Shown: positions 4,712 to 59,570 of the stretch, piece by piece
Layout: each line of letters starts with the position of its first letter
Position numbering within the stretch: position 1 is the stretch's first letter
IMG/VR virus record: IMGVR_UViG_3300035698_014446
Location: 28,206-92,205 of that record
Length of the DNA: 64,000 nt
Source of the DNA: a virus
Strand: one strand, 5' to 3'
Program-made: the position numbers and the translations under genes
The notes under the pieces: generated by a model
Told to the model about the DNA's origin: nothing
What the model saw: only the letters and a program-made list of their open reading frames with translations
Database searches by the model: none

Positions 4712-4723
4712 ATTTTGTCCCTG

Positions 4724-5353
4724 TCAAGCAATTACCCAGTTTACTTTATTACCTTTTTTAGTGTTACATAGTATACAACACAGTACAATGTTATTTATTT
4801 CGTGCCTACCATCTCTGTCCAATGAAATAACGTGATCTTTACTTATACCATTCGGATTATATTTAAATTGTACATTTTCCTCAAGCACCACATTACAATA
4901 CACACAACGACCATTATACTCAGTTATTTTATCAGCCCATTCTTGTGCAGTTATACCTTCATCGCCTACTAATTTTAGTAATCTACGATTGTCGTTATGA
5001 ATTTTTAATGACTCTTTATTGTTCTTACGCCATTTCTTTTGTTGTAATTTTATTTTCCTACAATTCACCTCTCTGTATTCTTTTTGTTGTATGGCTATTT
5101 TATTTTTATTATTATCGTACCACACTTTTTTCCGTTTTACTTCTTTTTCTTTATTTTTATTACGCCACTTTTTACCATAAATTTTCATTTTATTTTTATT
5201 TTTACTACGCCACTCTTTACTATGGACAGCAGCACATTTTTTACATCGTTGTTGAAAACCAAATTTTCCCTTTTTATTTTTATAAAAATGTTCAGAAATA
5301 GCTAAAAACTTTATATTACAATCAGAACATATTATAAAATTATATGTAGTCAC
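4724..5353 (-). CDS. HNH homing endonuclease
   Basis: RCVYC...DHVISL...H...NIVLCCILCN. Paralogue of 2909 and 6039. Confidence 0.85.
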   Translation of the reverse strand: MTTYNFIICSDCNIKFLAISEHFYKNKKGKFGFQQRCKKCAAVHSKEWRSKNKNKMKIYGKKWRNKNKEKEVKRKKVWYDNNKNKIAIQQKEYREVNCRKIKLQQKKWRKNNKESLKIHNDNRRLLKLVGDEGITAQEWADKITEYNGRCVYCNVVLEENVQFKYNPNGISKDHVISLDRDGRHEINNIVLCCILCNTKKGNKVNWVIA

Positions 5354-6031
5354 TTATAACCGTACTCCTGTAATAATAAGTCTGTGTCCACGTATTGAGT
5401 TTTGGAGAGGATTATTATTAGTGTAATATTTTACCCAATAATCATTGAATTCCATTACCTCACTAGTTTCCTTTATTAATACATGCGCTGAATCAATGAT
5501 AGCATGTCTCTTTATCTCGTTAATCAGTTTTATTATGTCAAAATTAGACGAAAAATACCTAATACCTTGTCTATCCTGACGAATAATAGAACGTAAGCTA
5601 CCACCTACACTCCACTTAAACAAAGTAATATGAAATCGTCTAGCGCAAGTTGTTATGTTCTTTATCGCCGTTACTACAGGATACGTGTGTTCAACCACAT
5701 CACACACTCTCACCAGATCATACAAAATAACTGGTTCATTGACAAATCTCTCTATAACGCCTTTGATAATGTTAACGTCCGGATACATCTTAGCTATGTA
5801 ATCAATAAACGATTTTGACGTTTCCAACACGTTATACTTTATAGTTCTTATCTTTCTTATCTCCGGGTATTCTATTAATTGTCCGGGTCCTATTTCCAGA
5901 ATTGATTTTATATTTTCATGTTTTCTAATATACTCTATATACATTTTATGATATAAATCTTTTCTGTTATGTTCGATAAACCCTACATCACCGGGCTTAT
6001 ATTGATCCCACTTTTTAAGTAATTCCGTCAT
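5354..6031 (-). CDS. Class I SAM-dependent methyltransferase
   Basis: SILEIGPG, YDLVRVCDVVEH. Confidence 0.75.
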   Translation of the reverse strand: MTELLKKWDQYKPGDVGFIEHNRKDLYHKMYIEYIRKHENIKSILEIGPGQLIEYPEIRKIRTIKYNVLETSKSFIDYIAKMYPDVNIIKGVIERFVNEPVILYDLVRVCDVVEHTYPVVTAIKNITTCARRFHITLFKWSVGGSLRSIIRQDRQGIRYFSSNFDIIKLINEIKRHAIIDSAHVLIKETSEVMEFNDYWVKYYTNNNPLQNSIRGHRLIITGVRL

Positions 6032-6038
6032 TTGGTTC

Positions 6039-6602
6039 CTATGCCAATTTTAATTCTTTACCAAATATTTTTAGTTTTTTCCAATCTAATTTATTTTTCT
6101 TTTTTGTATTATAATCTCTACAACATGGAACAACATTATCTATTTCATGTTTACCACCCTTATCTAAAGGAATAACGTGATCTTGACTAATACCATTTGG
6201 GTTATAAATATTAGGTAAATTTTCTTCCAACCTAATACCACAATAAGCACACCTACCATTATACTCAAGTATTTTGTGTGCCCATTCCTTAACAGTTGTC
6301 CCTTTGCCAGATAATTTTTTAAGAATTTTACGATTTCTTGTTTTTATTCTTATTGTGTCTTTGTTAATTTTATAGTATTTTTTATAGCGTTTTCTATTAC
6401 GTTTATTCGCCACTTCTTTGTTTTCCTCATACCATTTTTTATTACGTTTGTTTATTGATTTTTTATTTTTCTTGTATTGTATTCTATAGCGTTTTCTCGT
6501 GCATACCTTACAGTCTAATCTTAATTCGTTACCTCTTCTGTGAAAATATTCCGGCGTATCCGGAAATTCATCACCACATTTTATGCACTCTTTCATTATC
6601 AC
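6039..6602 (-). CDS. HNH homing endonuclease (last Zn-ligand Cys replaced by Tyr)
   Basis: RCAYC...DHVIPL...H...NVVPCCRDYN. Confidence 0.8.
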   Translation of the reverse strand: MIMKECIKCGDEFPDTPEYFHRRGNELRLDCKVCTRKRYRIQYKKNKKSINKRNKKWYEENKEVANKRNRKRYKKYYKINKDTIRIKTRNRKILKKLSGKGTTVKEWAHKILEYNGRCAYCGIRLEENLPNIYNPNGISQDHVIPLDKGGKHEIDNVVPCCRDYNTKKKNKLDWKKLKIFGKELKLA

Positions 6603-25015: not shown

Positions 25016-25459
25016 ATGAATGAGAAAAAGTTTCGCGAGACGCGGAAGAAAATTACGTATCGATATCGAAAAAATAATGCTGAAAAAATTAGAAAACAAG
25101 ACCGGGAACGGAAGCGAAAAGCCCGGTTAAAAAGGCAATTGATTGCCTCCTGTGAAAAAAGTATGGACGAAACATTCCAGACTATGAGGCCCGCATTATT
25201 TAAGTGGGCACAATTTTTTGCGCATTGGGATAAAAATTTTGAAATAAATGAGTTGGTAAATGTTGCTTTCGCTAATGGTAGTCTTCGGAGGATAAAAAAT
25301 CCCAAACTCTTATCTAAAAAAGTAAAATGGACAATGCAAAATTATATGTGTAAAATTAGACGAGAACACGACCCTGATAAACTTGTACAAATGTATGTTG
25401 ATATGTACGGGAGATTACCTGCTAACGTTGAGGAAAAATCAGATAATGATAATGATTGA
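25016..25459 (+). CDS. Hypothetical basic protein, weak resemblance to sigma-70 region 2
   Basis: AAAGGA RBS. LFKWAQFF...ELVNVAF...WTMQNYMCKIRR. Confidence 0.3.
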   Translation: MNEKKFRETRKKITYRYRKNNAEKIRKQDRERKRKARLKRQLIASCEKSMDETFQTMRPALFKWAQFFAHWDKNFEINELVNVAFANGSLRRIKNPKLLSKKVKWTMQNYMCKIRREHDPDKLVQMYVDMYGRLPANVEEKSDNDND

Positions 25460-25913
25460 TGAACTCACTAAACAAGTACAAATAAACGAGACAGAGTATA
25501 TTTATTATATAGGTGGTTCTGATATATATGGGGAAATGATTGTAGCATTAAAGGAATGTGATATTTCTAACGAAGCAATGCTTGATCTTGAACGTAAAAT
25601 TAGACAAGCGGAAGCAGGACCACGTATTAAAAAGTGGAGACAAAGAAATCCTGATAAATGTCGTAACTACACAAGAAATTATAATATATTAAAACGAGCA
25701 AATGGTATTGGCCTTAATACTGAACAATGGAAGAATATTCTCGAAAAGTACAATTTCAGATGTGCTTATTGTGGTGTTAAAAATAACCTTACCAGAGATC
25801 ATGTGATACCTATTAACAAAGGTGGTGAACATTCTCTAGTGGATGGGTTCCTCATATTTATGGAAAAATATAGATGGCAAGATGTGATCAAATGTCAATA
25901 TTCGACGCGTTGA
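25446..25913 (+). pseudogene. Truncated HNH endonuclease fusion
   Basis: RCAYC...DHVIPINKGGEHS, then lacks the NVVPxCxxCN half present in the paralogues. Confidence 0.6.
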
Positions 25914-30903: not shown

Positions 30904-31065
30904 TTGCCCGTGTACGTTGATAAAATGAGGAAATGTGTACCGAATAGTAAATGGAGATATACACAGTGTTGTCATTTAATAGCTGACACTGTTGACGAAC
31001 TCCATCGTATGGATATTGGTACAGGAACAGTTATTTGGAGTATTGGTGAGCAAACTCGACCCTAA
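30904..31065 (+). pseudogene. Truncated DUF4031-like protein
   Basis: PVYVD...W...CHLIADTVDELH, then diverges. Confidence 0.45.
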
Positions 31066-31395
31066 AAAGAGAGCAATATGTATTTGTTGTAGTCACGATA
31101 GAGATATACCTATGTGTGTACACACAGATTGTCCACATTTTAAAGGCGGACAGAGTTGGAAACACGATAATGATGGAAAGAATAAGAAAGATAAATAAAA
31201 CATAAATTAAAATGTTTTGGAGAATACGTGATTTAATGGCTTTACTGTTTGCTGTATGGTTGGTATTTGTATCTATAGTTGTAATTATATCCGTAATTGA
31301 CTGGTTATTATCACTTTCATTGTGGTTGATGGTTGTTATTATATCGGGACTGGTTATACCAATGATGTTACTTTGTTATTATAGAGATGAAATTG

Positions 31396-31626
31396 ATGGA
31401 TAATAATACATTTGTTAAGCAGTTAGCTGATGAAGCTGAGAAGGAATATTATGATATTCAGAATGTTATATATAAACTCGCCCAAGAGACAGAAAAATAC
31501 AAACATTAGGCTTTCAATTATGTATTGAAATCACTACATGAGAGAATGAATGTTCTTGGTAGGGATATAGGACATATAGTACATATTATTAAGAAACAAG
31601 ACAAAAATGGAGATAGTGATGATTGA
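31396..31626 (+). pseudogene. Small gene interrupted by an in-frame TAG (31507)
   Basis: Overlaps the upstream stop and the downstream start only if read through. Confidence 0.5.
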
Positions 31627-32260
31627 TAATTTTGACAGACTCAAAAAATTAGCTGGTGGTGGTTATACATGTAATTGTGACAGCGTTACACATATGGTAT
31701 GTGTTGGGTGTATGGCTAATAATGCTTTACGTGATTTGTCCATTAAGGCTTCTGAAAAGTTGGCTGAGATTAAAGAATGTCATCCGGATGTAATTATACC
31801 CATGTAACGGAGAAAAAATGGCAAGGGTAACTAACTGTTCCACAAAATGTATATATCGTTTAGTTTGTGAGGTGGACGGGTATATAGATAAATTGGTTAC
31901 TGGTTAAGATGGAAGTAATCAATGGTTAGTACATATAGTATTTCGGAATAATTGTGTAGCAATTCGAGAATCTGCTTTGTTTCGTTAGAAAATAAAGTAT
32001 GATTCGAGAATATTTTCAACCTTAAAAGGTGTATTTTACGTTCTATAAGGTATATTTTTATATCTCATATACGTTCTAATATATCTTTATACCCATTTAT
32101 GTTGAAAATATTTGTACTCCAGTTATAGTTTTATTATTGCCTACATATATATATACTCAATGTTGACCCGGTATTTGTCAATATTCAGCACCGTCCGTTC
32201 TCTTACCCCGGTCCCGGCATCTGCGCGGCTGAGTCTGCGCCGCCGCCCGGCTTCCCGCCC

Positions 32261-32628
32261 GCGCGCTCCCCGTCCGGCGCGCGCCCGCGCTGCTCTGTGC
32301 GCATACGTCTAGCGCGCCTCGGTGCGATGCACGACTCGGCGCGCTGGTCTTCCCCCGCACCTGTCCGGCGCGCCTCGGTGTGGGGTCTGGCTGGGCGCGC
32401 CGGTCCGCCGTCGCCGCCCGTCCGGCGCGCCCGCCTTCCGTGCGCGCTTGGGCGCGCCGGTCACTTGTTCAAGGTGTCTCCTCGCGCGCTCCGGGTTGGC
32501 GCTCCAATCCGTGTCTCGCGCGCCGCCCTGCCAATGCCGCCTGCGCCAGCCGGGTAGCCCTGCCGTCCCCACCAGCTGAGCACCGCTAACCTGAACGCAC
32601 CAACCGGACCCCCGCCAATCGGGCGCGC
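32261..32628. repeat. Array of ~12 GCGCGC-core motifs with ~27-34 bp spacing (iteron-like), A-depleted on the + strand
   Basis: GCGCGC at 32261, 32277, 32312, 32339, 32368, 32395, 32425, 32442, 32452, 32484, 32518, 32623. Confidence 0.7.
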
Positions 32629-32640
32629 TCTGTTGGGAAA

Positions 32641-33150
32641 AACCAGCCAAGCCGAAAAAAGGCGGGTTGGCAAAACAAAAAGCCAAGCCAAGCCAAACCA
32701 TACCCCCGCTCTCCACCAACCACGCACCCCCCGCCAGCGCAAGCGGGCACGAGGAAATGCTACACGCCAAGGCGAAAAACCAGCCCCCACCGGGAAAAGC
32801 TAGCCGGGAAAAGCCACACCCGGTTACGCAAAGCCAGCCGTTGGGACGAAAAGCCAGCCTTTGCCAGCAAAGCCCCCGCTGAGGAAACGCGCCAACCGAG
32901 GCAGAGAGCCACTAAACCGGGTGAAGCCCCACGGAAAAGGGGCCGCCGCACCCACACCCATAGGGCCGCCGCACCGACGCAAACACCCCCGCCGCACCAA
33001 CACCATCGCCCCCCGCCGCAACCCCGCCCAACAGACCGAGAAGCACCCACCCGCGCCAACAACGCCCGGCAAAGCGAAACGGAAACACAAAACCCGAGAG
33101 CCGAGGCCGAGCGATAAGGCCGAGCAACAAGGCTGAACCGCCAAAGCGGG
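32641..33150. other. T-depleted, probably non-coding GC/A-rich tract with AAGCC(A) and GCCGCACC repeats
   Basis: 21 T in 32641-33120 (480 nt) by hand count. Confidence 0.75.
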
Positions 33151-33323
33151 TTAAGTTGTGTGGCGTCCGCACCACGCCGCTCCACCGCACGGGAAGCCGC
33201 GCCCGGGGCCAAGAATCACCGGGGCGTCGCCCCCACCTCGACCGCGCCAACGTAGACGGGAAGCCAAAGGAAGGGCCACGCCGAGGTCGAGGACAGGGCA
33301 ACACACCAAGACGGGCGCAGAAA

Positions 33324-33362
33324 TGTGGTCCGCTCGACACATCGCGTAGTCCCGACACTACG
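33324..33362 (+). promoter_or_regulatory. Tandem upstream activator-like palindromes (TGT-N12-ACA and CGT-N12-ACG) for promoter 1
   Basis: tgtggtccgctcgacaca (33324) and cgtagtcccgacactacg (33345), 21 bp apart. Confidence 0.55.
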
Positions 33363-33413
33363 CCACCGGACCGCGCACCCCCTCTCCTGGCCTCCCGTGA
33401 AGGGTACGCGCTC

Positions 33414-33428
33414 TGGCACGCGGGTTGC
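33414..33428 (+). promoter_or_regulatory. sigma54 (RpoN) -24/-12 promoter 1
   Basis: TGGCACG-CGGG-TTGC, followed by tcttttttagg. Confidence 0.85.
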
Positions 33429-33497
33429 TCTTTTTTAGGTGGGGGCCGCCCACCGGGCGGCTCCCGCCGCCCCCCTGTCGGGGGCGGACCACGAATC

Positions 33498-33535
33498 GGG
33501 GCCACCCGTCCCCACGAGTCGGGCAGAATAGGAGC
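33498..33535 (+). ncRNA. 5'-UTR pseudoknot motif copy 1 with SD
   Basis: P1 gggg/cccc, P2 cccg/cggg, loop acgagt, then cagaataggag. Confidence 0.6.
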
Positions 33536-33542
33536 ACCAACC

Positions 33543-34016
33543 ATGACCACAAAACAAACGAACGAAGAAAGGGCCGCCGCACACCGTGCCGCCGCCACCG
33601 AACACGAAGCCCGTGCTGCCGGACCCGCCACAGGAGGCCGGACCGACAACCACGAAGCCCGCGCCGCCGAACACCGGGCCGCCGCCCAAACACACACAGC
33701 AGCCGCCGCCGCACAACGAACAGCAGCCGCACCGGCAACCAGCACCGAGAAAAAGTGCACCGACGCCAACGCCGCCGACGTCACAACGACACACGCCACC
33801 GACGCCACGCTCGCCGCCGCCGACGCCCGCAACGGCGTACCGGCAACCAGCACCGAACAAGCCGCCGCCGGAGCCGCCGCCGAAGCCGCAGCGGCGCAGA
33901 ACGAAGCCGAGCGCCAGACGGACCGGGGTCGCCCCGACCATGCCGCTCGCGCCCGGACCGAAGCCGCCGAAGCGCACGATGCAGCAGCAGCACATCACCG
34001 CACCGCCGCCGAGTAG
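33543..34016 (+). CDS. Ala/His/Thr-rich early protein encoded almost without T
   Basis: AGGAG RBS, first gene after promoter 1, 14 T in 474 nt, HRAAA repeats. Confidence 0.75.
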   Translation: MTTKQTNEERAAAHRAAATEHEARAAGPATGGRTDNHEARAAEHRAAAQTHTAAAAAQRTAAAPATSTEKKCTDANAADVTTTHATDATLAAADARNGVPATSTEQAAAGAAAEAAAAQNEAERQTDRGRPDHAARARTEAAEAHDAAAAHHRTAAE

Positions 34017-34136
34017 CACAACAGCCCCGCCCCTCGGCCAGCGAGCCGGGGGGCCGTCGGGCCAGCCCCCGCAACAGCGGGGGCGAGCCCGGCGCGACCG
34101 AGCGACCCGCACAAGCGGGAAGCCGACGACGCCAAA

Positions 34137-34177
34137 CGGGACCAGTCCGGACCCGACCAAACCGGGCAGAACAGGAG
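34137..34177 (+). ncRNA. 5'-UTR pseudoknot motif copy 2 with SD
   Basis: P1 cggg/cccg, P2 gtccgg/ccgggc, then agaacaggag. Confidence 0.6.
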
Positions 34178-34185
34178 CAACGATC

Positions 34186-34755
34186 ATGGGAACCAGACAA
34201 AGCAAGAACAGCACAGGCCGCAAGGCCACAGAGGCCAAAACAGGAACCGCAACCCCCAACACGATCAGCAAGGCCACGCCGCCGAGCGCACCCGCGCCGA
34301 CCCCCGCCGAAACCACCGTGCCCACCTCATCGGTCGTCGATGTCCGCGACCTCTCAGTTGCCGAGCTTCGACTACTGCTGACAGAGGCCAAAACACGCGA
34401 AGCTCCCGCCAAGGCCGCAGCCAAAGGACAGGCTAAGCTCGCCAAACTCCGGACCTATGCGGTCCGGCAGCGGGCGTGGGCCGAGTCGCAGACTGCCAAA
34501 GCTAGCACGGCGTGCGACCGGGCCGACAAGGCCGAGGCCGCACTGGCGACCTACGAGGCCAAGTTGGGCATCGACCCCGCGACGGAGGCCGAAATCGCCG
34601 CGACTCTCGCCGCGCTGATCGCCTCCGGGCGAGTCGTACAAGTCGATTCGTCCTCTCTCGTCGGGCCAGAGCCGGAGGGGACCGAGGCTGAGACCGCAGT
34701 CGCCGACGTCGAAACCGCCAAGACCGACGACAAGGCCGACTCCGCCGCCGCGTAG
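34186..34755 (+). CDS. Early coiled-coil protein, GC-rich paralogue of 37239-37847
   Basis: LSVAELRLL...KLAKLRTYAVRQRAWA...YEAKLG...GRVVQV aligns without gaps to the paralogue. Confidence 0.85.
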   Translation: MGTRQSKNSTGRKATEAKTGTATPNTISKATPPSAPAPTPAETTVPTSSVVDVRDLSVAELRLLLTEAKTREAPAKAAAKGQAKLAKLRTYAVRQRAWAESQTAKASTACDRADKAEAALATYEAKLGIDPATEAEIAATLAALIASGRVVQVDSSSLVGPEPEGTEAETAVADVETAKTDDKADSAAA

Positions 34756-34975
34756 TGCGGAACCAGCTCCACCGACGCCCCCGCCTCGTGCGGGGGCCAT
34801 CGGGCCGACGCCCCGACCAACCGGGGGCGTCCGCCCGGTGACGGACCGCCAACGGGGACGGTGCACGTCCGCTGCGAGCGGACGCCGCCTCCGGGGGCCG
34901 ACTGCGCCTCCGCTACGAGCGGGGAGCGTCGGGGGCCAGCGCGCGAGCGCGGGCCGCCCCGCCAAGGCGGGCGAA
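34756..34975 (+). other. Cluster of about six GC-rich stem-loops in an intergenic spacer
   Basis: e.g. gcccccgc/gcgggggc, gacgcccc/ggggcgtc, cgtccgc/gcggacg. Confidence 0.55.
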
Positions 34976-34982
34976 CAGACAC

Positions 34983-35019
34983 GGGCACGGGTCCGCCCAC
35001 GAACGGCCCAGAACAGGAG
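34983..35019 (+). ncRNA. 5'-UTR pseudoknot motif copy 3 with SD
   Basis: P1 gggc/gccc, P2 gggtc/ggccc, loop acgaa. Confidence 0.6.
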
Positions 35020-35027
35020 CAAGAACA

Positions 35028-35288
35028 ATGGAACACGAACAAGAACAGAAAAGAGCAATCGTTATCAGCTATCGCGAGCTGTACAAGCTTGGTATGCCCA
35101 ACGACGAGATACACGGTATTCTCGTTGTGGGACACGACAAGTGGGCAGCTATCGGGGCTACGGTTGACCTCTACATGGATCCCAACGAAAACACAGCGTA
35201 TCTCGTCGTCCGGGGTGTTAGCGAAGCAATCATAGCGCTAGTACACGAAATGACTGACCAAATGATAGACATCAGCTACACTGACTAA
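35028..35288 (+). CDS. Hypothetical early protein
   Basis: AGGAG RBS and pseudoknot leader. Confidence 0.7.
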   Translation: MEHEQEQKRAIVISYRELYKLGMPNDEIHGILVVGHDKWAAIGATVDLYMDPNENTAYLVVRGVSEAIIALVHEMTDQMIDISYTD

Positions 35289-35399
35289 GCAACAACCGAA
35301 TAATCAACAACTAACGTTTCCCCGGCTTGCCGGGGCCACCGGGTCATCATCCGCGTATGCGGGCATCCGCTCGGTGTGTAGGTGTACACCAAACCAAAC

Positions 35400-35436
35400 G
35401 GGTATGGACCGGCCCACGAATGGTCCAGAACAGGAA
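35400..35436 (+). ncRNA. 5'-UTR pseudoknot motif copy 4
   Basis: P1 gggt/gccc, P2 tggacc/ggtcca, loop acgaa. Confidence 0.6.
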
Positions 35437-35444
35437 CAGGAACC

Positions 35445-35939
35445 ATGAGACACAAACAGAAACAGGCGCAAACAACCACCTCAATGCACATTGATGCAGC
35501 ACAGGCACTTGACGCGTTGGCTACTGCTACTGATGATGCAGAACAGACCGCATCATACGTCGCTGATGCCGCTGAACACCGCCGCGCTGCCAGTGTAGCT
35601 AATCAAGCCACAGTTGTTAACAACTTGGTTAAACAAGCACAAAAGCAAGATAACGCAACAAAGGCTGCAGGTGGTATCGGGCATATTGCAGTAGCAACCG
35701 AACATCGTGTCGCTGCTGCCGCACATGATCAGGCAATGAAAAATGAGTTGGTGGAGCACATTAACGGACCAGATATAACCATCGAAGAAGTAATTGCCCT
35801 GTACAACGTGTTAGCACAGAACGAAATCCTTGAAAAAAGAGCATTGGATGACATGGTGGAAGAGATAGTGGAACATCTTTCCGGCGGTGACGTTACTAAG
35901 GAAGAAGTAATACGAATGTATTGCACATTAACGGAATAA
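35445..35939 (+). CDS. Ala-rich early protein related to 33543-34016, with a duplicated C-terminal motif
   Basis: AAEHRRAA and TEHRVAAAAHD. ELVEHINGPDITIEEVIALY repeated as EIVEHLSGGDVTKEEVIRMY. Confidence 0.65.
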   Translation: MRHKQKQAQTTTSMHIDAAQALDALATATDDAEQTASYVADAAEHRRAASVANQATVVNNLVKQAQKQDNATKAAGGIGHIAVATEHRVAAAAHDQAMKNELVEHINGPDITIEEVIALYNVLAQNEILEKRALDDMVEEIVEHLSGGDVTKEEVIRMYCTLTE

Positions 35940-36020
35940 AAACCACGTTAGCGGTAAATAGCGTTAACGTGCTGTGTGTACGTTGTGTTAAAACAACATG
36001 TATCAATGACTGTTGATGTA

Positions 36021-36194
36021 CATATACCACCGGTTGTATATGAGACATCATGAGAAGCATTGACATACAACCGATGGTATATGATGAGCATGTTACGTAC
36101 AAACAACATAATGTTGTGTTGAAACAACATGCCCAATGTACCAACCACAACCGGTGGTATACCGAACAGTACAATATACAACCGGTGGTATATG
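36021..36194. repeat. Four palindromic operator-like boxes, consensus ATAC(A/C)ACCGGT(G/T)GTAT
   Basis: Copies at ~36021, 36064, 36146, 36174. Confidence 0.75.
36091..36129 (+). promoter_or_regulatory. Tandem TGTT(A/G)-N8-CAACA upstream activator-like sites for promoter 2
   Basis: 36091 and 36112, 21 bp apart. A third copy at 35981. Confidence 0.7.
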
Positions 36195-36202
36195 TGGCTT
36201 TC

Positions 36203-36217
36203 TGGCACGCGGATTGC
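36203..36217 (+). promoter_or_regulatory. sigma54 promoter 2
   Basis: TGGCACG-CGGA-TTGC, followed by tcttctttagg. Confidence 0.85.
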
Positions 36218-36294
36218 TCTTCTTTAGGGTGGAGGCACAATCTCCAAGGGCAGGTCGCCAGTCTCGACGAATCTGGCAGATAGGAGCACGAACC

Positions 36295-36606
36295 ATGTGT
36301 GAGGAACGAACAGGGACTCCGGCTGAGGAACACGCCCGCGATCATGCGGACTTCGTGGCTGGACAGGAGGCCGTTACTGTTCTTGCCGGACAGGTCAGGA
36401 TGGGTCCGGTCGAGCAAGCCGCTGCGTGCGGCTACGCGGTTGATTGCAACGACTGTCAGCAGAGGCACAAATGCGCAAGGCACTCCATCAACGAACTGTG
36501 GCTTGTGGTTCACGCTAATCGCGACCACGACGCTATTCTTGAGGCGGCTGAAAGTAGGGCCATGACCGCAGAGAACCTGATCGGGGTCATCAAGCGGCTG
36601 CTGTAG
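36295..36606 (+). CDS. Hypothetical early protein with CxxC
   Basis: AGGAG RBS. First gene after promoter 2. Confidence 0.7.
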   Translation: MCEERTGTPAEEHARDHADFVAGQEAVTVLAGQVRMGPVEQAAACGYAVDCNDCQQRHKCARHSINELWLVVHANRDHDAILEAAESRAMTAENLIGVIKRLL

Positions 36607-36685
36607 CACTGATATCGTCCCTTGCTGATTGCAGGGGGCGTCAGGCCTACGTCCGCGATGGCGGACGTTAACCTAACGCAAATGA

Positions 36686-36722
36686 GGGTATGGGTTGACC
36701 CACGACAGACCCAGAACAGGAG
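36686..36722 (+). ncRNA. 5'-UTR pseudoknot motif copy 6 with SD
   Basis: P1 gggt/accc, P2 tgggtt/gaccca, loop acgaca. Confidence 0.6.
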
Positions 36723-36727
36723 TAGTC

Positions 36728-36925
36728 ATGAATGACAATATAACAGCAAAAGACATGGAAAACATCCAAATCGTCGACAAACACACCTATTATATTGTAA
36801 TTGTTGGCCAGGTGTACTTGTCGGCTAACAACAGCCTTACGCCAATATTGTCCGCAGCAAAACAATACCCCAATTATAACGCCGCAAGTTATGCTGCAGA
36901 TTTATGGCTCGAGAGTACGTATTAA
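36728..36925 (+). CDS. Hypothetical early protein
   Basis: AGGAG RBS and pseudoknot leader. Confidence 0.6.
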   Translation: MNDNITAKDMENIQIVDKHTYYIVIVGQVYLSANNSLTPILSAAKQYPNYNAASYAADLWLESTY

Positions 36926-37238
36926 CCACTATAACCTTTTTATGGGAATAGAATTATGATACTTGATTTAGACTCACGCAAACACGAAATAACTAACGAA
37001 AAGGAACAGATTGTCCATGTTGACAATGCAAAAGTATTTTGGATTAACGGCGAAGTCGAAGATTGCTCATTATCGTTTCAACGACTGGCAAACTTCAACT
37101 TTGATTTTGATAAACTCGACGACTTCTATAATAATAACTAACTTTCGCCGCTCCTAGCCCCAGCCGGTTCAATTCCGACAAGCGGTTTAATGAGTAAGAA
37201 ATTGAAAACTTAATAATACTTTTGAAAGGAAAAGAAAC

Positions 37239-37847
37239 ATGAGTAAAAGTAGAAAAAACAAAAGCAGTCAGAGTCCGAAACAGGTCCCAAAACGTGCTAG
37301 CGAAAAGGCAATGCGTGAAAGCACATCCAAGAAAGGGCCAAAACTATCGCCAAACACCCACGGAACTGAGAATAACCCAAAACAGGTTGACGAAAGTAAA
37401 ATTGCCGCCATCGACGCTGCTGCAGCCGATAAGCCTGAGAAAATAATCGACCCAAAGATTGCGGTAATACTGGCTAAGCCGCCAACTGAATTAACCGTCA
37501 AAGAGTTACGAATCCTGATCAAGTACAAGGAAGGCGACAAAATTGCAGCCAATGCTGCAGAGCGAGGCAAAAACAAGCTTGCCAAAATGCGAACGTATGC
37601 TATCCGTCAACGAGCGTGGGCAGACAGACAGACGGAAAAAGCCGAGGCATCCGAGAAGAAAGCCACAACCGCGGAGGCCAAACTGACTGAGTACGAGGTA
37701 AAGATTGGGGTTGAAGAATTGACTGACGAGGAGATTGACAAGGTACTAAAAGAATTGATGAGTCAAGGTCGTGTGGCTCAGATATCAATTAAGAAAATTT
37801 TGGAACCACACGAGGATGATCAAGCAGCAACAACGGTAATCAGTTAA
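37239..37847 (+). CDS. Coiled-coil protein, normal-composition paralogue of 34186-34755
   Basis: LTVKELRIL...KLAKMRTYAIRQRAWA...YEVKIG...GRVAQI. Confidence 0.85.
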   Translation: MSKSRKNKSSQSPKQVPKRASEKAMRESTSKKGPKLSPNTHGTENNPKQVDESKIAAIDAAAADKPEKIIDPKIAVILAKPPTELTVKELRILIKYKEGDKIAANAAERGKNKLAKMRTYAIRQRAWADRQTEKAEASEKKATTAEAKLTEYEVKIGVEELTDEEIDKVLKELMSQGRVAQISIKKILEPHEDDQAATTVIS

Positions 37848-37850
37848 TGA

Positions 37851-37902
37851 ATAGCTACGGTACGGCAGAGTTATAAGCTCTGTCGGTCCGTAACTGTTTT
37901 TT
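37851..37902 (+). terminator. Probable rho-independent terminator
   Basis: Imperfect stem tacgg..cggcagag/ctctgtcg..ccgta followed by a T-run. Confidence 0.55.
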
Positions 37903-38646
37903 AATTTTTAAAAGGAGCAGAAACATGAGTGCAAAATACGTAATATACCATAAAGGTGGTGGGTACTTACAGGAAGACGGTAACTACACTAATGATATTA
38001 AAAAAGCATGGATTTTCAACACCAAAGAAGATGCCGAAATTGAAATTGCTGGGTGTAGTGAAAAAGTGGAAACTGTAACTATATAATAATATTGTTTTAA
38101 TCAACACGATTAAAACATAAAAATAAAATTAGAGAGTTTAGACTAAAATGAAAGGAAATAAAGATGGAAGCTTATTTTTGTAAAAATTGTAAAGTAGTTA
38201 TTCTTGAAGATGAATTAGAGAATGACTGTTGTCCTCATTGTGGTAATGGGGAGCTAGAAATAGTTCCTAAAGAAACTCAATAACTTTTACCGGAAATACT
38301 GTAGTGATAACGCGTTAAATTGCGGAATCATCAGCTTAAAATCGAAGGGGTGGACTCTTGACAAAAGATCACCCACCCACGATCGCTTCATTGTGGCTTA
38401 CAAACCGGTTTTAACGATTCACAAGTGCTAATTAACAGAAGGACAAAATAACATGGCAACTATGGACCCAATACTGAAAAAAGAGATAAAAAGCGTTATA
38501 GAATCGTTTGAATTGTTTGCTGAGGAAGTACTACCTCAGTCCGGTTCAATAGTCTTTGATATCGGCAATCTGAACGATGGTCTATTATTGGCTAAAAAAG
38601 TGAAACACTACTTAGATGGTTTGGACTAAACAAAAGGAAGGACAGA

Positions 38647-39024
38647 ATGATGCAGATAGGTAATATTGAAAAACATTTAGAAGACAACTGTAGTCTTGAG
38701 GACATACAGGAGTTGAGCAAGGCTTTGGGTATAGCAATAAAGCACCTACCGAATATACTGGTGTCGGAATTGTACCTCAGGGCATTAACCGCCAGCGTTA
38801 ACATGATCGGACACAAGAAAGGCGATGAACCAGCAGCGGACCTGATCAAGCGGTTGTGCAAAGAGCATAATGAAACAGAAGAATACATCCGCGGGACAGC
38901 TATTGACGCAGCCATGCAGACGATATCAAGCTTAAAACATGGCGATATTTTTGACATGCTGGGTCTTGAGGATGATGATGAGTTATTCAAGTTTATTGAT
39001 ATTGCGATAATACTAAACCTGTGA
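38647..39024 (+). CDS. Hypothetical protein
   Basis: ORF with AAGGA RBS. Confidence 0.6.
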   Translation: MMQIGNIEKHLEDNCSLEDIQELSKALGIAIKHLPNILVSELYLRALTASVNMIGHKKGDEPAADLIKRLCKEHNETEEYIRGTAIDAAMQTISSLKHGDIFDMLGLEDDDELFKFIDIAIILNL

Positions 39025-39037
39025 ACAGTAGTGGGCG

Positions 39038-39142
39038 TGTTGCGTCGGTGCAACATGTGTTTATTCGGCGCAACATGGCCTACCGGGATATATACAACGG
39101 GTTGTATATTGGGTATCACTAACATACTACCCGTAGTATATG
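39038..39142 (+). promoter_or_regulatory. Tandem TGTT-N9-CAACA-type sites (39038, 39058) and two ATAC..GTAT palindromes (39089, 39123) upstream of promoter 3
   Basis: Same order and spacing as at promoter 2. Confidence 0.7.
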
Positions 39143-39148
39143 CCATCT

Positions 39149-39163
39149 TGGCACGAAGTTTGC
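39149..39163 (+). promoter_or_regulatory. sigma54 promoter 3
   Basis: TGGCACG-AAGT-TTGC, followed by tctttttagg. Confidence 0.85.
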
Positions 39164-39181
39164 TCTTTTTAGGGTAGAGAT

Positions 39182-39220
39182 TGGCGGCGGACCGGCCAGT
39201 GACAGGTTCGAGATTTGGAG
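39182..39220 (+). ncRNA. 5'-UTR pseudoknot motif copy 7 (fully covaried)
   Basis: P1 tggc/gcca, P2 ggacc/ggttc, then GGAG SD. Confidence 0.55.
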
Positions 39221-39225
39221 CAGTC

Positions 39226-39654
39226 ATGAGTGAGTATTTTAAAGTAGTTGAGTTTAAGCATGGTGGGAACAATGAACACGTAGAAACAGTACAGCGTGTG
39301 TCAGGACTTCCTATAGAACAGATCAAGGGTGAACGGTTTAAAGGACAGGTATGGTTCACAACTCTTGGCATCATCGTCTCAACCTACGATGGTGAAAATC
39401 AACGACAGCTAATTGTAAACGCTGATCAGAGTGGGAGAACAGAAGTATTGATGATCTACTCACCAGTTGACAGTCCGATGATCATCGAACACACGGTGTG
39501 TGAAGGGCAAACCTATCAACAGAGGCAGGAAGGGATTATGGTCGACAGGGCGGGCATCATCAACCCAAAGATTGAGGAGTTTATGACTTCTATCCCAGAT
39601 GAAGCGGCCAAGATCATAATGGACTCCGAACTATGGCAGTATATGACATACTGA
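39226..39654 (+). CDS. Hypothetical early protein
   Basis: GGAG RBS. First gene after promoter 3. Confidence 0.65.
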   Translation: MSEYFKVVEFKHGGNNEHVETVQRVSGLPIEQIKGERFKGQVWFTTLGIIVSTYDGENQRQLIVNADQSGRTEVLMIYSPVDSPMIIEHTVCEGQTYQQRQEGIMVDRAGIINPKIEEFMTSIPDEAAKIIMDSELWQYMTY

Positions 39655-39951
39655 AAGGAGCAGTCATGAGTACTTATCGAACAATAGGTGGTAAGAAGGT
39701 TGATATAATGATGGAAGCGGACATCATAACCCGTATTGAGGTGGATTTCCGCGATCAACAAGACAGAATGAGAGACGCGACGTGTAAAGAAATATATGGA
39801 CCAATAGGAGAAATGGAACATATGTTGCAAATTTTAGGATTTACTATTGTACAAACATCTGATAGTAAATTACTAGTAATCGGTGATGCCGGTCTGTTGC
39901 GAGTAATGGAGATATTGGCTAACCAAGCACCAGATGTAAGGTGGGTGTGAT

Positions 39952-40221
39952 ATGAATACTCGCAGACGAGTAAGAGAACACGGTACTATGGAAACAGTAG
40001 CCGGTAATGGCAAAGACAGAATGAACGCAATCCGCACAGTGGTCCACGAAAGTCAGTTTGCAAAGATCGACGGAGTGATGATGGATCTATTCACCGCAAG
40101 TATCATTTGTCAGGTGTACGATGCGTTAAGTGATGCAAACAAAGAGAAGTTCGCCAACCACCCGGCCCCAGCCATGGCCAACATCGCGTACAAACTGGTC
40201 GGGAAACGGGGTGGAAAATGA
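39952..40221 (+). CDS. Conserved phage early protein
   Basis: KIDGVMMDLFTASIICQVYDALSDANKEKF, a motif I recall from phage early proteins. Confidence 0.55.
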   Translation: MNTRRRVREHGTMETVAGNGKDRMNAIRTVVHESQFAKIDGVMMDLFTASIICQVYDALSDANKEKFANHPAPAMANIAYKLVGKRGGK

Positions 40222-57220: not shown

Positions 57221-58375
57221 TCAATCCTCTATATATTGAAATTCTTCATTTTTCATAAATCGGTCATGTCCGCACTGTATACAACTGTCATGCTTATCGG
57301 AAATCGTACCACATTGACAACACTTCCAGTCCATCACTCGAAGTACTCTCATATCCTTGTTCATCGCCCCGGTCCCCAACAGCGTCAGCTTACATCCGTG
57401 GTCCGCCAGCAGTTTTCCCTTATCACTCAAAAACTCTTCCAATTCGTGCTGGTTGATGTAATTAACGAAATTCAGGAACGCGTAATCCGGTTTTACCGCA
57501 CACAAGAACCGTTCAACCTGCTTGTCCGACCATGTAAACAATCGGCGAATCCGTTTAGTTACCGTGGTCCTCTCTTCCACATTCATCCCAATCTTCGCAC
57601 TCAAATCAACCCACGTCATTTCGTGCTGATCATGGTAGAAAGGGCCGCTGGTCCCGCCGGGGGTATTACCTACTCGTATGGGGTAAGTCCTGAGGCTTGC
57701 GAAGATGGAACCGCAATCCTTCACGCTTACTCCGGCGTTATCCAGCACCCTTCCCACCATGCAATCTCTGCTCGTGCAATACGGCCACTCGAATCCGTTG
57801 TTTAGCCCAAGGTCAAAACCTTGTGCTGTCTCCAGTAACGCTGTCTTGCCGTGCTTGAGCAGTCTCTGCATCAACTTATGTGTATCGCATACAAACTCTC
57901 TCAGTTTGGGATTATCTTTAGCCAAATGCGCCTTTTCTGGACTTCTCCACATTTTCCTAATCACTGACGCACAGCTACCCTGCATAGTACTGGATATGCT
58001 GTTTAGTTCTTCTCGCTCCGTAGCTGCGTCTGCATCACACAAAACGGTTACTAACGGGTGTATATGTAGTGAAAATTTCCTCGTTGCAAACTGTTCACGC
58101 AACAATTCCTCAAAAACCCTTGCTTCCTGAATCACTGCGTGGGGACCGACGATCACATTTTCTATGTAATCAAAACTTATTGCCGATGGTAGGGCTTTGG
58201 TGATGTGTGATACCCCATCATCACTTACATATGTATGCCCGGCGTTCGGCATGAAATCACACACAGCGACGGTTATTTCTGGATACGTATTATACAAATA
58301 TGCAGCCAATTTTCCTTTTCCAGTTGACCCCCACTGTCCATCGATAATCACGTTGGCTTTTCCTGTTTGAATCAT
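57221..58375 (-). CDS. purZ: N6-succino-2-amino-2'-deoxyadenylate synthase (PurZ)
   Basis: GQWGSTGKG (Ser in place of the PurA catalytic Asp), PNAGHT, YCTSRD, RTYPIRVG, TTVTKRIRR, LNFVNY in place of PurA TKLD. Confidence 0.92.
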   Translation of the reverse strand: MIQTGKANVIIDGQWGSTGKGKLAAYLYNTYPEITVAVCDFMPNAGHTYVSDDGVSHITKALPSAISFDYIENVIVGPHAVIQEARVFEELLREQFATRKFSLHIHPLVTVLCDADAATEREELNSISSTMQGSCASVIRKMWRSPEKAHLAKDNPKLREFVCDTHKLMQRLLKHGKTALLETAQGFDLGLNNGFEWPYCTSRDCMVGRVLDNAGVSVKDCGSIFASLRTYPIRVGNTPGGTSGPFYHDQHEMTWVDLSAKIGMNVEERTTVTKRIRRLFTWSDKQVERFLCAVKPDYAFLNFVNYINQHELEEFLSDKGKLLADHGCKLTLLGTGAMNKDMRVLRVMDWKCCQCGTISDKHDSCIQCGHDRFMKNEEFQYIED

Positions 58376-58406: not shown

Positions 58407-59570
58407 TTATGCCTTAATCACGGCTAACGGTTTTAGTTCAACCACTATATCTACTAAATCTTTTTGATTTTCCATGACAACTGTTATATCTTTATACGCG
58501 CCGGATGCCTCATCCAAATCTGTTACTGATCGAATAGAATGGATAATGTTGGAATCATTGAGAAACTTAATTTCTTTCTCAAGATCAAGTTCACGCCTTG
58601 CTTGATTCCTGCCCATTTTTCTACCAGCACCGTGGGAACAAGACATAAAACTATCACGACAACCCTTACCCTTAACAATGTAACTTGATGTACCTTGTGA
58701 CCCAGGTATTATTCCAATTTCACCATCTTTGGCGGACGTTGCACCCTTACGATGAACTATAACATTTTTACCAAAATGATTTTCCCACCGAGCATAATTA
58801 TGGTGTACATCAATTGGGGAATCGTTAAAATTTTCTGATGTTGGTCCATCGAGGCAGTACTCTACTTTTTTCATCATTAATGCTCTACTATTTTTTGCAA
58901 ACATTAGTGCGTAATTCATAGCCTCTATGTATTCTTTAGCTTCGTTTGTTTCTATCGGTAGAAACGCAAGACCATCCTCACCTTTACAGACAGGAATGTT
59001 AGAATACCATCTTTCACAAAGTGATTGTGCGATTTTGTTGTACTCTTTAGCTATTTTAAGTCCGAAATTACGACTTCCGGAATGAAGCATTATCCATATA
59101 TAACCATCAGACCCCTGTTGTATTTCTATAAAATGGTTTCCACCACCAAGCGTCCCCATCTGCTTTCTCGCTGACGCAAGTTGTTTTTGTATTACTGGTA
59201 TATCTGGTGCGACAGCAAACCCCGACCAGTATTGGTTTTCTTTATGATGATTGAATCCTAACGGTATTACTTCTCTAATAGCAGACATAACCATCTTTAA
59301 TTCTGCAGTAGTAATAGATTTTCTGGCAGTTTTAACAGCACACATACCACAACCAATATCCACACCTACCGCGTTAGGAATTACTACGCCGTTTGTGGCT
59401 AAAACTCCTCCTATTGGCATGCCGTACCCTCTGTGAGCATCCGGCATTATAGCTACGTGTTTAAACGTAAATGGGAGATTTGCTAAATCTATAGCTTGTT
59501 TCACAGCCCCATCCTCAATGTCGTCTAACCACATTTTTATAGGTTTGCTCTCTGTTATTAATACTTTCAT
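58407..59570 (-). CDS. rtcB: RtcB RNA ligase
   Basis: MPDAHRGYG, VGVDIGCG, GTLGGGNHF, HSGSR, HRKGA, SHGAGR, DEASGAYKDI. Confidence 0.95.
   Translation of the reverse strand: MKVLITESKPIKMWLDDIEDGAVKQAIDLANLPFTFKHVAIMPDAHRGYGMPIGGVLATNGVVIPNAVGVDIGCGMCAVKTARKSITTAELKMVMSAIREVIPLGFNHHKENQYWSGFAVAPDIPVIQKQLASARKQMGTLGGGNHFIEIQQGSDGYIWIMLHSGSRNFGLKIAKEYNKIAQSLCERWYSNIPVCKGEDGLAFLPIETNEAKEYIEAMNYALMFAKNSRALMMKKVEYCLDGPTSENFNDSPIDVHHNYARWENHFGKNVIVHRKGATSAKDGEIGIIPGSQGTSSYIVKGKGCRDSFMSCSHGAGRKMGRNQARRELDLEKEIKFLNDSNIIHSIRSVTDLDEASGAYKDITVVMENQKDLVDIVVELKPLAVIKA

What the first reader, a model, noticed from the sequence alone, without database searches (positions are those of the whole stretch)
34186..37847. 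Same protein encoded twice, once GC-rich and T-poor and once in normal composition
Seen: 34186-34755 and 37239-37847 align without gaps over ~100 aa (LSVAELRLL/LTVKELRIL, KLAKLRTYAVRQRAWA/KLAKMRTYAIRQRAWA, YEAKLG/YEVKIG, GRVVQV/GRVAQI). The first copy is very GC-rich with many Lys/Glu/Ile to Ala/Val swaps and sits under promoter 1. The second is A-rich and sits downstream of promoter 2. Inference: a low-Z bootstrap copy of an essential takeover factor plus a production copy, possibly an RNAP-binding or Z-tolerance protein.
Basis: partly seen in the sequence, partly recalled or inferred. Interest (0 to 1): 0.8.

Follow-up and report, generated by a model that had tools for sequence, protein, structure and literature searches.

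The report
Recoded duplicate of early phage protein
A salt-lake phage that carries the gene for replacing adenine with 2-aminoadenine encodes the same small, unknown early protein twice, once in ordinary DNA and once in GC-rich, thymine-poor DNA; both copies look functional, so the pair is a built-in control showing that the odd DNA composition is selected in its own right.

Summary
B1 (34186-34755, 189 aa) and B2 (37239-37847, 202 aa) align without gaps over 119 aa at 41% identity (E 4e-30). They are the only two copies in the 92-kb genome. B1 is 67% GC and 9.8% T. B2 is 46% GC and 38.6% A.

B1 lies in a 2.8-kb island (32190-35027; 70% GC, 8% T) behind the first of three sigma54-type promoters. 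It carries the leader shared by the first-wave genes. B2 is the last gene of the second sigma54-type unit, with a plain ribosome site and a strong terminator.

The family is new and tiny: about ten sequences among 1.84 billion representatives, with no Pfam or PHROG match. It has a basic disordered tail, a 70-residue helix with alanine every seventh residue, and a modelled antiparallel dimer.

B1 keeps 13 of 15 columns that are invariant in the other members. It is closer to GC-type relatives from other metagenomes than to B2, so the split is old.

The "early copy plus later copy" reading is plausible but untested. An RNA polymerase or Z-tolerance role has no support: the family is absent from 50,697 GenBank phage records, of which 190 match this PurZ.

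This scan had noted the island before, on this genome only, not on other DNA.

The parts
32190..35027 (.). GC-rich, strand-asymmetric island that holds B1. The + strand is A-poor at 32190-32580 (A 5.9%) and T-poor at 32581-35027 (T about 6.8%). Overall it is 70.2% GC, in a genome of 40% GC.
   Evidence: both borders are spanned by a 3,536-nt contig of run X1, and pieces were recovered unchanged in runs X2-X4
33414..33428 (+). First sigma54-type promoter (TGGCACGCGGGTTGC), 758 nt upstream of the B1 start; the ORF at 33543-34016 lies between.
   Evidence: 3 sites against 0.12 expected; 89% identical over 35 nt to the second promoter
34106..34185 (+). Leader before B1, ending in CAGAACAGGAGCAACGATC-ATG. 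It is the same leader class as before six other first-wave ORFs.
34186..34755 (+). B1, the GC-type copy: 189 aa, 67% GC, T 9.8%, pI 5.7. Model: disordered residues 1-52, helix 58-127, helix 134-147, acidic tail.
36203..36217 (+). Second sigma54-type promoter (TGGCACGCGGATTGC), preceded by ACCGGTGGTATA-type repeats at 36023-36192.
37239..37847 (+). B2, the ordinary-composition copy: 202 aa, 46% GC, A 38.6%, pI 9.5. It has a plain GAAAGGAAAAG ribosome site and no shared leader. Model: disordered residues 1-70, helix 87-156, helix 163-175.
37849..37905 (+). Hairpin followed by a U run directly after the B2 stop: a likely intrinsic terminator that closes the second unit.
   Evidence: -28.5 kcal/mol, z -6.0, 0 of 200 shuffles as stable
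57221..58375 (-). PurZ homologue (context for the Z-genome reading).
   Evidence: (39% identity to Alteromonas phage ZP6 PurZ, E 3e-59)

Best explanation
B1 and B2 are two functional, long-separated paralogues of a new, narrowly distributed family of small early phage proteins. Each has a basic disordered N-terminal tail, a ~70-residue helix with Ala or Leu at every seventh position that most likely forms an antiparallel dimer, a short second helix ending in GRVxQ, and an acidic tail.

B1's odd amino-acid make-up is the footprint of a nucleotide-level constraint on the island it sits in. That constraint favours few A:T pairs and, above all, few T on the sense strand, and it acts on genes and spacers alike. 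It pushes every free position of B1 towards Ala, Thr, Pro and Gly codons, while the residues the protein needs are held.

The phage therefore supplies one biochemical activity from two expression regimes. B1 comes from the first sigma54-type unit with the first-wave leader. B2 is the last gene of the second unit, with an ordinary ribosome site and a terminator.

Shown: the paralogy, the conservation, the positions, the different leaders and the compositional contrast. Inferred: that both are expressed, their order in time, that they share a function, and the dimer. What the protein binds is unknown; my guess is nucleic acid or a host protein, held through the conserved RTYAxRQRAW face and the basic tail.
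For: Paralogy: and exactly two copies.

Purifying selection on B1:
- It keeps 13 of 15 columns invariant in the other nine members, and both changes are conservative (K>R, A>V).
- There are no indels over 119 aa.
- Nei-Gojobori pN is 0.39-0.43 against pS 0.72, which is saturated.
- The AF2 architecture is the same for both copies.
- The heptad A-L-A-A-A-A-L is identical in both.

Constraint at DNA level:
- The spacers flanking B1 have 2.4% and 5.9% T.
- B1's unconserved N-terminus has 5.6% T and its conserved core 11.8%, with 23 of the core's 35 T dictated by the amino acid.
- T3 is 6.3% against A3 16.8%.

Two regimes: the leader motif precedes B1 and six other ORFs but not B2, and B2 is followed by a terminator.

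Old split: B1's best core identity is 57%, to P0007, against 41% to B2 over the 119-aa alignment. It groups with P0008 and P0009 (support 83/93), and the AU test rejects a B1+B2 clade (p 0.02).

Dimer: ipSAE 0.63 against 0.27 for the best of 3 controls. That mark was reached by 20 of 30 proteins solved as pairs of one chain and 1 of 23 solved as single chains. The three runs agree in 100% of contacts and the partner pLDDT is at least 82. Contacts 142-128, 135-135 and 121-146/149 indicate an antiparallel arrangement on the Ala heptad.

Synteny: a B2-type gene sits in the same place, followed by the same promoter and leader, in a marine-sediment contig.
Against: - There are no expression data of any kind.
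- T-poor DNA has no stop codons in any forward frame, so the intact B1 ORF is not evidence of selection by itself.
- dS is saturated and the composition shift inflates dN, so dN/dS is only nominal.
- The tree rests on 99 columns and could be pulled by shared GC-driven amino-acid bias.
- B1 (pI 5.7, 14 Lys) and B2 (pI 9.5, 31 Lys) differ enough in charge that they may not do the same thing.
- One low-depth contig in run X1 joins 37213 to 37905 and so lacks B2, which hints that B2 is dispensable in some genomes.
- The dimer is a model only.
Confidence: 0.5

Rival explanations
1. The genome is Z-substituted and host RNA polymerase reads Z templates poorly. B1 is a boot copy whose template strand is poor in Z, and the protein is the factor that lets host polymerase (sigma54 holoenzyme) cope with Z-DNA. 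B2 then takes over as the production copy.
For: A PurZ homologue is present. No phage RNA polymerase, sigma54 or enhancer-binding ATPase was found, so host polymerase must read the DNA. B1 lies in the sense-strand T-poor island behind the first sigma54-type promoter. PMC10786293 reports 35-85% lower protein yield from Z templates in an E. coli extract, and cites up to 92% block of T7 and human polymerases by a single template Z.
Against: The family is absent from all 50,697 GenBank phage records, of which 190 match this PurZ. Three sampled PurZ phages have no such island. Five more genes, and a second and third sigma54-type unit of ordinary composition, are presumably read by the same polymerase. 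B1 is the least T-depleted part of the island. Lys>Ala and Glu>Ala swaps remove sense-strand A, which template-Z avoidance alone does not require. Nothing links the protein to RNA polymerase. Z in the virion DNA is itself unproven.
Confidence: 0.13
2. Xenologue. B1, perhaps with part of the island, was imported by recombination from a relative with a GC-rich genome. Its Ala-rich make-up is inherited rather than evolved in place, and the two genes are redundant or serve different hosts.
For: B1 groups with three GC-type members from other metagenomes (P0007, P0008, P0009) and not with B2. The left border of the island, at about 32190, is abrupt. Early regions of these phages are mosaic: the genes upstream of the B2-type gene differ in L005.
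Against: A T content of 2-7% with A of 22-28%, in spacers as well as genes, is not what a GC-rich donor gives; third positions have A 16.8% against T 6.3%. The island shares the native sigma54-type promoter (89% identity over 35 nt) and the native leader with the ordinary-composition genes. GC content stays intermediate (47-48%) for about 2 kb past the right border rather than dropping to the genome's level at once.
Confidence: 0.2
3. The two proteins are partners or have divided the work. Because the Ala-heptad interface is identical, they form B1:B2 heterodimers, or they act on different targets. The acidic B1 and basic B2 would then not be early and late doses of one activity.
For: All interface residues of the modelled dimer are the same in both copies. 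Net charge differs by 10 units and the tails are unrelated in sequence. Both lineages appear to have persisted for a long time.
Against: The heterodimer was not modelled or measured. The charge difference is what GC pressure on Lys codons would produce anyway. One contig lacks B2.
Confidence: 0.15
4. The agent is at RNA level rather than Z. The first operon, B1 included, is written to give U-poor, GC-rich mRNA that survives host or phage endoribonucleases that cut at U or in AU-rich stretches. B1 is then the nuclease-proof copy.
For: The sense strand is T-poor in genes and spacers alike. The phage carries an RtcB RNA ligase, which suggests that RNA cutting and repair matter in this infection.
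Against: This does not explain the A-poor left arm unless that arm is transcribed leftward. B1 still has 55 U. No ribonuclease was identified here.
Confidence: 0.1
5. B1 is a decaying relic that is no longer used.
For: Its open frame is uninformative in stop-free T-poor DNA.
Against: It keeps 13 of 15 family-invariant columns, has no indels over 119 aa, has an intact leader and AGGAG site, and has the same predicted fold.
Confidence: 0.04

Closest known systems
PurZ (Z-genome) phages: Alteromonas phage ZP6, Vibrio phage phiVC8-like H2 SGB-2014, Burkholderia phage Bm1
   Same: All carry a PurZ homologue beside family A DNA polymerase, helicase and nucleotide-hydrolase genes.
   Different: None of the 190 GenBank phage records that match this PurZ holds a B-family member. 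The three sampled have no island of this kind: their lowest A or T in 500 nt is 8-15%, against 2.8% here, and the 8% case is a Lys/Glu/Ala-rich protein tail. This phage is larger (92 kb) and uses sigma54-type early promoters.
Alacoil-type antiparallel coiled coils (alanine every seventh residue; recalled from Gernert et al. 1995, not checked here)
   Same: The same register reads Ala/Leu-Ala-Ala-Ala-Ala-Leu over about 50 residues in both copies. The dimer is modelled as antiparallel with its dyad at A135.
   Different: This is a structural motif, not a homologous family. Structure searches return only generic coiled coils at Z 6-7. There is no experimental structure.
Early regions read by host polymerase in staged infections (T7 class I genes, T5 first-step-transfer region; from general knowledge)
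   Same: A small block of first-expressed genes of unknown or takeover function stands at the head of a co-oriented early region.
   Different: Those regions are not compositionally recoded and do not carry a second, ordinary-composition copy of one of their genes. Whether this island enters the cell first is unknown.
Ordinary phage paralogue families (for example the multi-copy family at 2909-6602 of this genome)
   Same: Duplicated genes within one phage genome.
   Different: Those copies share the genome's composition. B1 and B2 differ by 21 points of GC within 3 kb, and they are the only pair that bridges the island and ordinary DNA.

Membership tests
B family (new, unnamed; defined here by alignment A2) | The conserved core: L-x(22)-KL-x3-RT-x-A-x-RQRAWA, the Ala heptad, and G-R/K-x-x-Q near the C-terminus. 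| tested here: met
   Both copies carry all 13 columns invariant across the ten members. B1 keeps 13 of 15 columns invariant in the other nine. Profile E-values are 4.5e-70 for B2 and 1.9e-60 for B1.
Any curated protein family (Pfam, PHROGs, NCBIfam) or solved structure | A significant profile or fold match. | tested here: not met
   There is no hit above threshold for either copy or for any of the ten members. The PDB profile search gave one short, likely chance match. Foldseek found nothing. The wide structural search gave only generic coiled coils at Z up to 7.1.
Z-genome (PurZ) phage | A PurZ homologue in the genome. | tested here: met
   PF00709 matches at 92 bits, and the nearest annotated relatives are phage PurZ proteins (ZP6, 39% identity, E 3e-59).
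Z-genome (PurZ) phage | 2-aminoadenine actually replacing adenine in virion DNA. | not testable with these tools
   This needs nucleoside LC-MS or restriction tests on virion DNA.
Z-genome (PurZ) phage | dATP- and dGTP-clearing partners (DatZ HD hydrolase, MazZ). | tested here: inconclusive
   A dUTPase-fold gene lies beside purZ. DatZ and MazZ were not searched for here.
sigma54-dependent transcription unit | A -24 GG / -12 GC promoter, TGGCAC-N5-TTGC. | tested here: met
   Three exact sites, all on the + strand within 6 kb, against 0.12 expected. A variant, TGGCAT-N5-TTGC, is kept in relative L005.
sigma54-dependent transcription unit | An AAA+ enhancer-binding activator and sigma54. | tested here: not met
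   Neither PF00158 nor PF04552 is found in the phage genome. Both would have to come from the unknown host, which cannot be tested.
Antiparallel Ala-heptad (Alacoil-like) coiled coil | Ala at a fixed heptad position, with helices packed antiparallel. | tested here: inconclusive
   The heptad is plain in the sequence. The antiparallel packing comes from a model only: ipSAE 0.63 against 0.27 for the best of 3 controls, a mark reached by 20 of 30 proteins solved as pairs of one chain and 1 of 23 solved as single chains; the runs agree in 100% of contacts and the partner pLDDT is at least 82.

The most novel reading that the evidence does not exclude
The pair is a compositional boot system. A phage with 2-aminoadenine DNA keeps one copy of a factor in DNA that host sigma54 polymerase can read before any phage protein exists, because that DNA has few Z:T pairs and almost no Z in the template. 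That factor, a coiled-coil dimer, is what makes the rest of the Z genome readable, including its own ordinary-composition copy. This would be the first known case of a gene kept in two 'dialects' of DNA to get past a phage's own base modification.
Probability: 0.12. Interest if true: 0.9.

Novelty: new variant of a known kind. Interest (0 to 1): 0.6.

Why it matters
Paralogues inside one small genome normally share its composition. Here one protein fold is written twice within 3 kb, at 67% and 46% GC. The GC-rich copy holds every residue the family needs and gives way everywhere else.

That makes the pair a natural experiment. It shows that the island's composition is selected at the DNA or RNA level and overrides amino-acid preference. 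It also supplies matched templates, the same protein in two compositions, for a direct test of whether 2-aminoadenine in a template hinders host transcription. How Z-genome phages start their infection is still an open question.

The work also defines a new early-protein family with a testable dimer model.

Tried and rejected
- The DNA around the relatives P0002, P0003 and P0006-P0010 could not be fetched, including the 85-kb contig of P0006. Whether relatives hold both copies, an island or purZ therefore stays open.
- **No relatives found.** IMG/VR scans with B2, the family alignment, the promoter pattern and a conserved neighbour gene found nothing. A GTDB genome scan found nothing. The JGI metagenome scan gave one 2.8-kb locus.
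- **No further members.** More protein searches added none. The ESM Atlas gave no usable hit.
- **No RNA data.** No RNA holder was listed among the public runs, so expression could not be examined. The population in the four runs laid is nearly clonal, with two single-contig differences in 7 kb, so pN/pS within the population was not possible.
- **Second pair rejected.** I tested whether the other island ORF (33543-34016) and the ORF at 35445-35939 form a second recoded pair, because of shared AEHR-AA motifs. This was rejected: BLASTP E 0.91, and z 1.9 with 26 of 500 shuffles as good.
- **Island-like stretches in known PurZ phages.** Bm1's T-poor stretch is only a Lys/Glu/Ala-rich protein tail. 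ZP6 has a mildly GC-rich spacer without A or T depletion.
- **RNA genes.** No tRNA was found in the window, and Rfam gave nothing relevant at 31000-40000.
- **Literature.** Full-text searches found no description of such an island or of sigma54 promoters in PurZ phages.
- **Not attempted.** A B1:B2 heterodimer model could not be run, because the single complex job went to the B2 homodimer.


Full report
**Setting.** The window is bases 28206-92205 of a 92,205-bp IMG/VR virus record with terminal repeats. Near-identical DNA occurs in salt-lake metagenomes from several studies between 2017 and 2019.

The genome is 40% GC. It has a replication block with a DnaB-like helicase, a dUTPase-fold protein, a gp32-like protein, a family A polymerase and an RtcB ligase. 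It also has a PurZ homologue at 57221-58375 on the minus strand. The nearest annotated relatives of that protein are the PurZ proteins of known 2-aminoadenine phages, such as ZP6 at 39% identity and E 3e-59. No T7-type RNA polymerase, sigma54 or enhancer-binding ATPase was detected in the phage.

**The observation.** The ORFs at 34186-34755 (B1, 189 aa) and 37239-37847 (B2, 202 aa) align without a gap over 119 residues: 41% identity, 62% positives, E 4e-30. The local score of 255 compares with 44 +/- 8 for composition-preserving shuffles. A profile search of all six frames finds these two copies and no third.

- Nucleotide identity by codon position is 0.55, 0.65 and 0.29. Synonymous sites are therefore saturated (pS 0.72) while pN is 0.39-0.43.
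- B1 is 67% GC with 9.8% T. B2 is 46% GC with 38.6% A.
- An all-against-all comparison of the genome's ORFs shows other paralogue families. B1/B2 is the only pair that bridges the odd-composition DNA and ordinary DNA.

**Where the copies sit.** B1 lies in a 2.8-kb island at 32190-35027. The island is 70% GC against 36% in the genes upstream. Its plus strand is A-poor for the first 390 nt (5.9% A) and T-poor for the rest (about 7% T). The spacers flanking B1 have 2.4% and 5.9% T.

The island is real. A 3,536-nt contig of run X1 spans both borders, although X1 may be the source of this record. Three other runs yield identical fragments, including the left junction.

Exact TGGCAC-N5-TTGC sites occur three times in the window, all on the plus strand, at 33414, 36203 and 39149. 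Only 0.12 are expected by chance. The first two promoters are 89% identical over 35 nt. From this the early region reads as follows:

- Promoter 1, the ORF at 33543-34016, B1, the ORF at 35028-35288, then the ORF at 35445-35939.
- Repeats of ACCGGTGGTATA type, then promoter 2, three small ORFs, B2, and a hairpin of -28.5 kcal/mol followed by a U run (z -6.0).
- More small genes, then promoter 3.

Seven ORFs share a leader that ends in CAGAACAGGAGCA just before the start codon. They are B1, all the others behind promoter 1, the first two behind promoter 2, and the first behind promoter 3. B2 lacks this leader. It has a plain GAAAGGAAAAG site like the genes that follow it. The sequence therefore places the two copies in different transcription units and different classes of translation start.

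**Is B1 a working gene?** An open frame means nothing here, because T-poor DNA has no stop codons in any forward frame. B1's frame is in fact open for 200 codons upstream of its start. The evidence is of another kind:

- The start at 34186 has the shared leader, and its N-terminus aligns with those of the homologues.
- There are no indels over 119 residues.
- Of the 15 columns invariant in the other nine family members, B1 keeps 13, and the two changes are K>R and A>V.
- The AlphaFold model has the same architecture as that of B2: a disordered N-terminus, one helix of 70 residues at pLDDT about 90-96, a second short helix and a disordered acidic tail.
- Within B1, T is rarest where the protein is free to vary (5.6% in the N-terminal 54 codons). 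It is commonest in the conserved core (11.8%), where 23 of 35 T are dictated by Leu, Val, Ile, Tyr, Trp or Cys codons.
- Third positions have 6.3% T but 16.8% A. This is not the symmetric pattern of a merely GC-rich gene.

I read this as two pressures in conflict. A nucleotide-level pressure is common to the whole island, spacers included. A protein-level pressure holds the core.

**What the protein is.** No Pfam, PHROG or NCBIfam family matches either copy or any relative. The PDB profile search, Foldseek and the ESM Atlas gave nothing. A wide structural search returns only generic coiled coils at Z 6-7.

A full HMMER scan of 1.84 billion representative proteins found 12 hits, 7 of them at E below 1e-10. 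The usable family is ten sequences. All come from metagenomes: salt lake, marine sediment, and one MAG labelled Methylophaga.

The conserved core is KL-x3-RTYA-x-RQRAWA followed by a strict seven-residue rhythm, identical in both copies, of Leu-Ala-Ala-Ala-Ala-Leu. A two-copy model of B2 residues 70-190 passed its controls. The ipSAE was 0.63 against 0.27 for the best of 3 controls. That mark was reached by 20 of 30 proteins solved as pairs of one chain and by 1 of 23 solved as single chains. The three runs agreed in 100% of contacts and the partner pLDDT was at least 82.

The contacts (142 with 128, 135 with 135, 121 with 146 and 149) describe an antiparallel pair packed on the alanine stripe. 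This is the arrangement I recall as the "Alacoil", a recollection I did not check here. It is a model, not a measurement. Because the interface residues are identical in B1, homo- and heterodimers are equally conceivable.

The tails differ. B2 is basic (pI 9.5, net +9) and B1 is near-neutral to acidic (pI 5.7). A basic disordered tail with an arginine-rich helical face suggests binding to nucleic acid or to an acidic partner. That is a guess.

**Age and origin of the pair.** B1 is less like B2 (41% over the 119-aa alignment) than like P0007 from another metagenome (57% over 99 core columns). In a maximum-likelihood tree it groups with P0008 and P0009 (support 83/93). B2 groups with the four closest AT-type members, and an AU test rejects a B1+B2 clade (p 0.02).

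The family splits into two compositional classes. B2, P0002, P0003, P0005, P0006 and P0010 have Phe+Tyr+Ile+Asn+Lys at 23-28%. B1, P0007, P0008 and P0009 have 8-16% and are rich in alanine.

Two explanations fit. Either the two-copy design is old and other phages also keep a GC-type copy, or B1 was imported from a GC-rich relative. Shared compositional bias could also pull the GC-type sequences together on only 99 columns.

The one related locus I could read, L005 from marine sediment, carries a B2-type gene in the same position. It is followed by the same neighbour gene, the same repeats, a TGGCAT-N5-TTGC site and the same leader. At 2.8 kb it is too short to show whether a B1-type copy exists.

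Several features argue against simple import: the island's native promoter and leader, its T-specific skew that extends into the spacers, and the intermediate GC content (47-48%) that continues for about 2 kb past its right border.

**The Z reading.** The literature gives the idea some footing. PMC10786293 reports 35-85% lower protein yield from Z-substituted templates in an E. coli extract. It also cites an up to 92% block of T7 and human polymerases by a single template Z. With no polymerase of its own, this phage must be read by the host enzyme.

The specific claims do not fare well:

- The family is absent from all 50,697 GenBank phage records, of which 190 match this PurZ. It is therefore not a general companion of purZ.
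- Three sampled PurZ phages show no comparable island.
- B1 is the least T-depleted segment of the island.
- The Lys>Ala and Glu>Ala swaps remove sense-strand A, which template-Z avoidance alone would not demand.
- Two further sigma54-type units of ordinary composition are presumably read by the same polymerase.

An RNA-level agent, namely U-poor and nuclease-resistant first transcripts, fits the sense-strand bias equally well. The phage's RtcB ligase makes that agent thinkable. Neither agent can be chosen from sequence.

**Verdict.** The assignment of a polymerase-binding or Z-tolerance function is unsupported.

The pair is most valuable as an internal control for the island. It also provides matched templates for a direct test of transcription on Z-DNA. 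Other notes of this scan describe the island, the promoters and the leader on this same genome. Nothing similar was found on other DNA.

Noticed in passing
window 37213-37905: In run X1, one low-depth contig (2.3 against 7.8) joins 37213 to 37905 with 8 other letters between. This removes exactly B2, its ribosome site and its terminator. A second contig diverges after 37923. A co-occurring variant or relative seems to lack B2.
   Followed up: partly
window 32264-32463: The A-poor left arm of the island holds repeated, partly palindromic CCGTCCGGCGCGCC / GGGCGCGCCGGTC motifs at about 57-nt spacing, all containing GGCGCGCC. They could be protein-binding sites (origin, packaging or operator).
   Followed up: partly
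window 32102-32129 and 37107-37135: Sigma70-like promoter matches (10 of 12) lie just before the island's left border and about 100 nt before B2. These are consensus matches only: 18 were found against 10 expected in the region.
   Followed up: no
window 58407-59570 (-): A full-length RtcB RNA ligase (PF01139, E 9e-107) lies directly beside purZ. This suggests RNA repair during infection.
   Followed up: no
window 2909-6602 (-), 25383-25913 (+) and upstream of the window: A paralogue family with at least eight members is spread over the late region, plus one copy on the + strand at 25383-25913 (30-68% identity).
   Followed up: no
window 37141-37238: The spacer before B2 contains GGTTCAATTCC, which resembles a tRNA T arm. 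ARAGORN finds no tRNA in the window and Rfam finds nothing here.
   Followed up: partly
L008 (Alteromonas phage ZP6) 37200-37500: The known PurZ phage ZP6 has a 65% GC non-coding stretch (genome mean 50%) at the head of its leftward early genes. It shows no strong A or T depletion, so it may be a faint analogue of the island.
   Followed up: partly
L005 1800-2060: The marine-sediment relative keeps TACTACCGGTTGTGTAT-type repeats, a TGGCAT-N5-TTGC site and the same leader before the gene that follows its B2-type gene. The early regulatory scheme is therefore conserved beyond salt lakes.
   Followed up: partly
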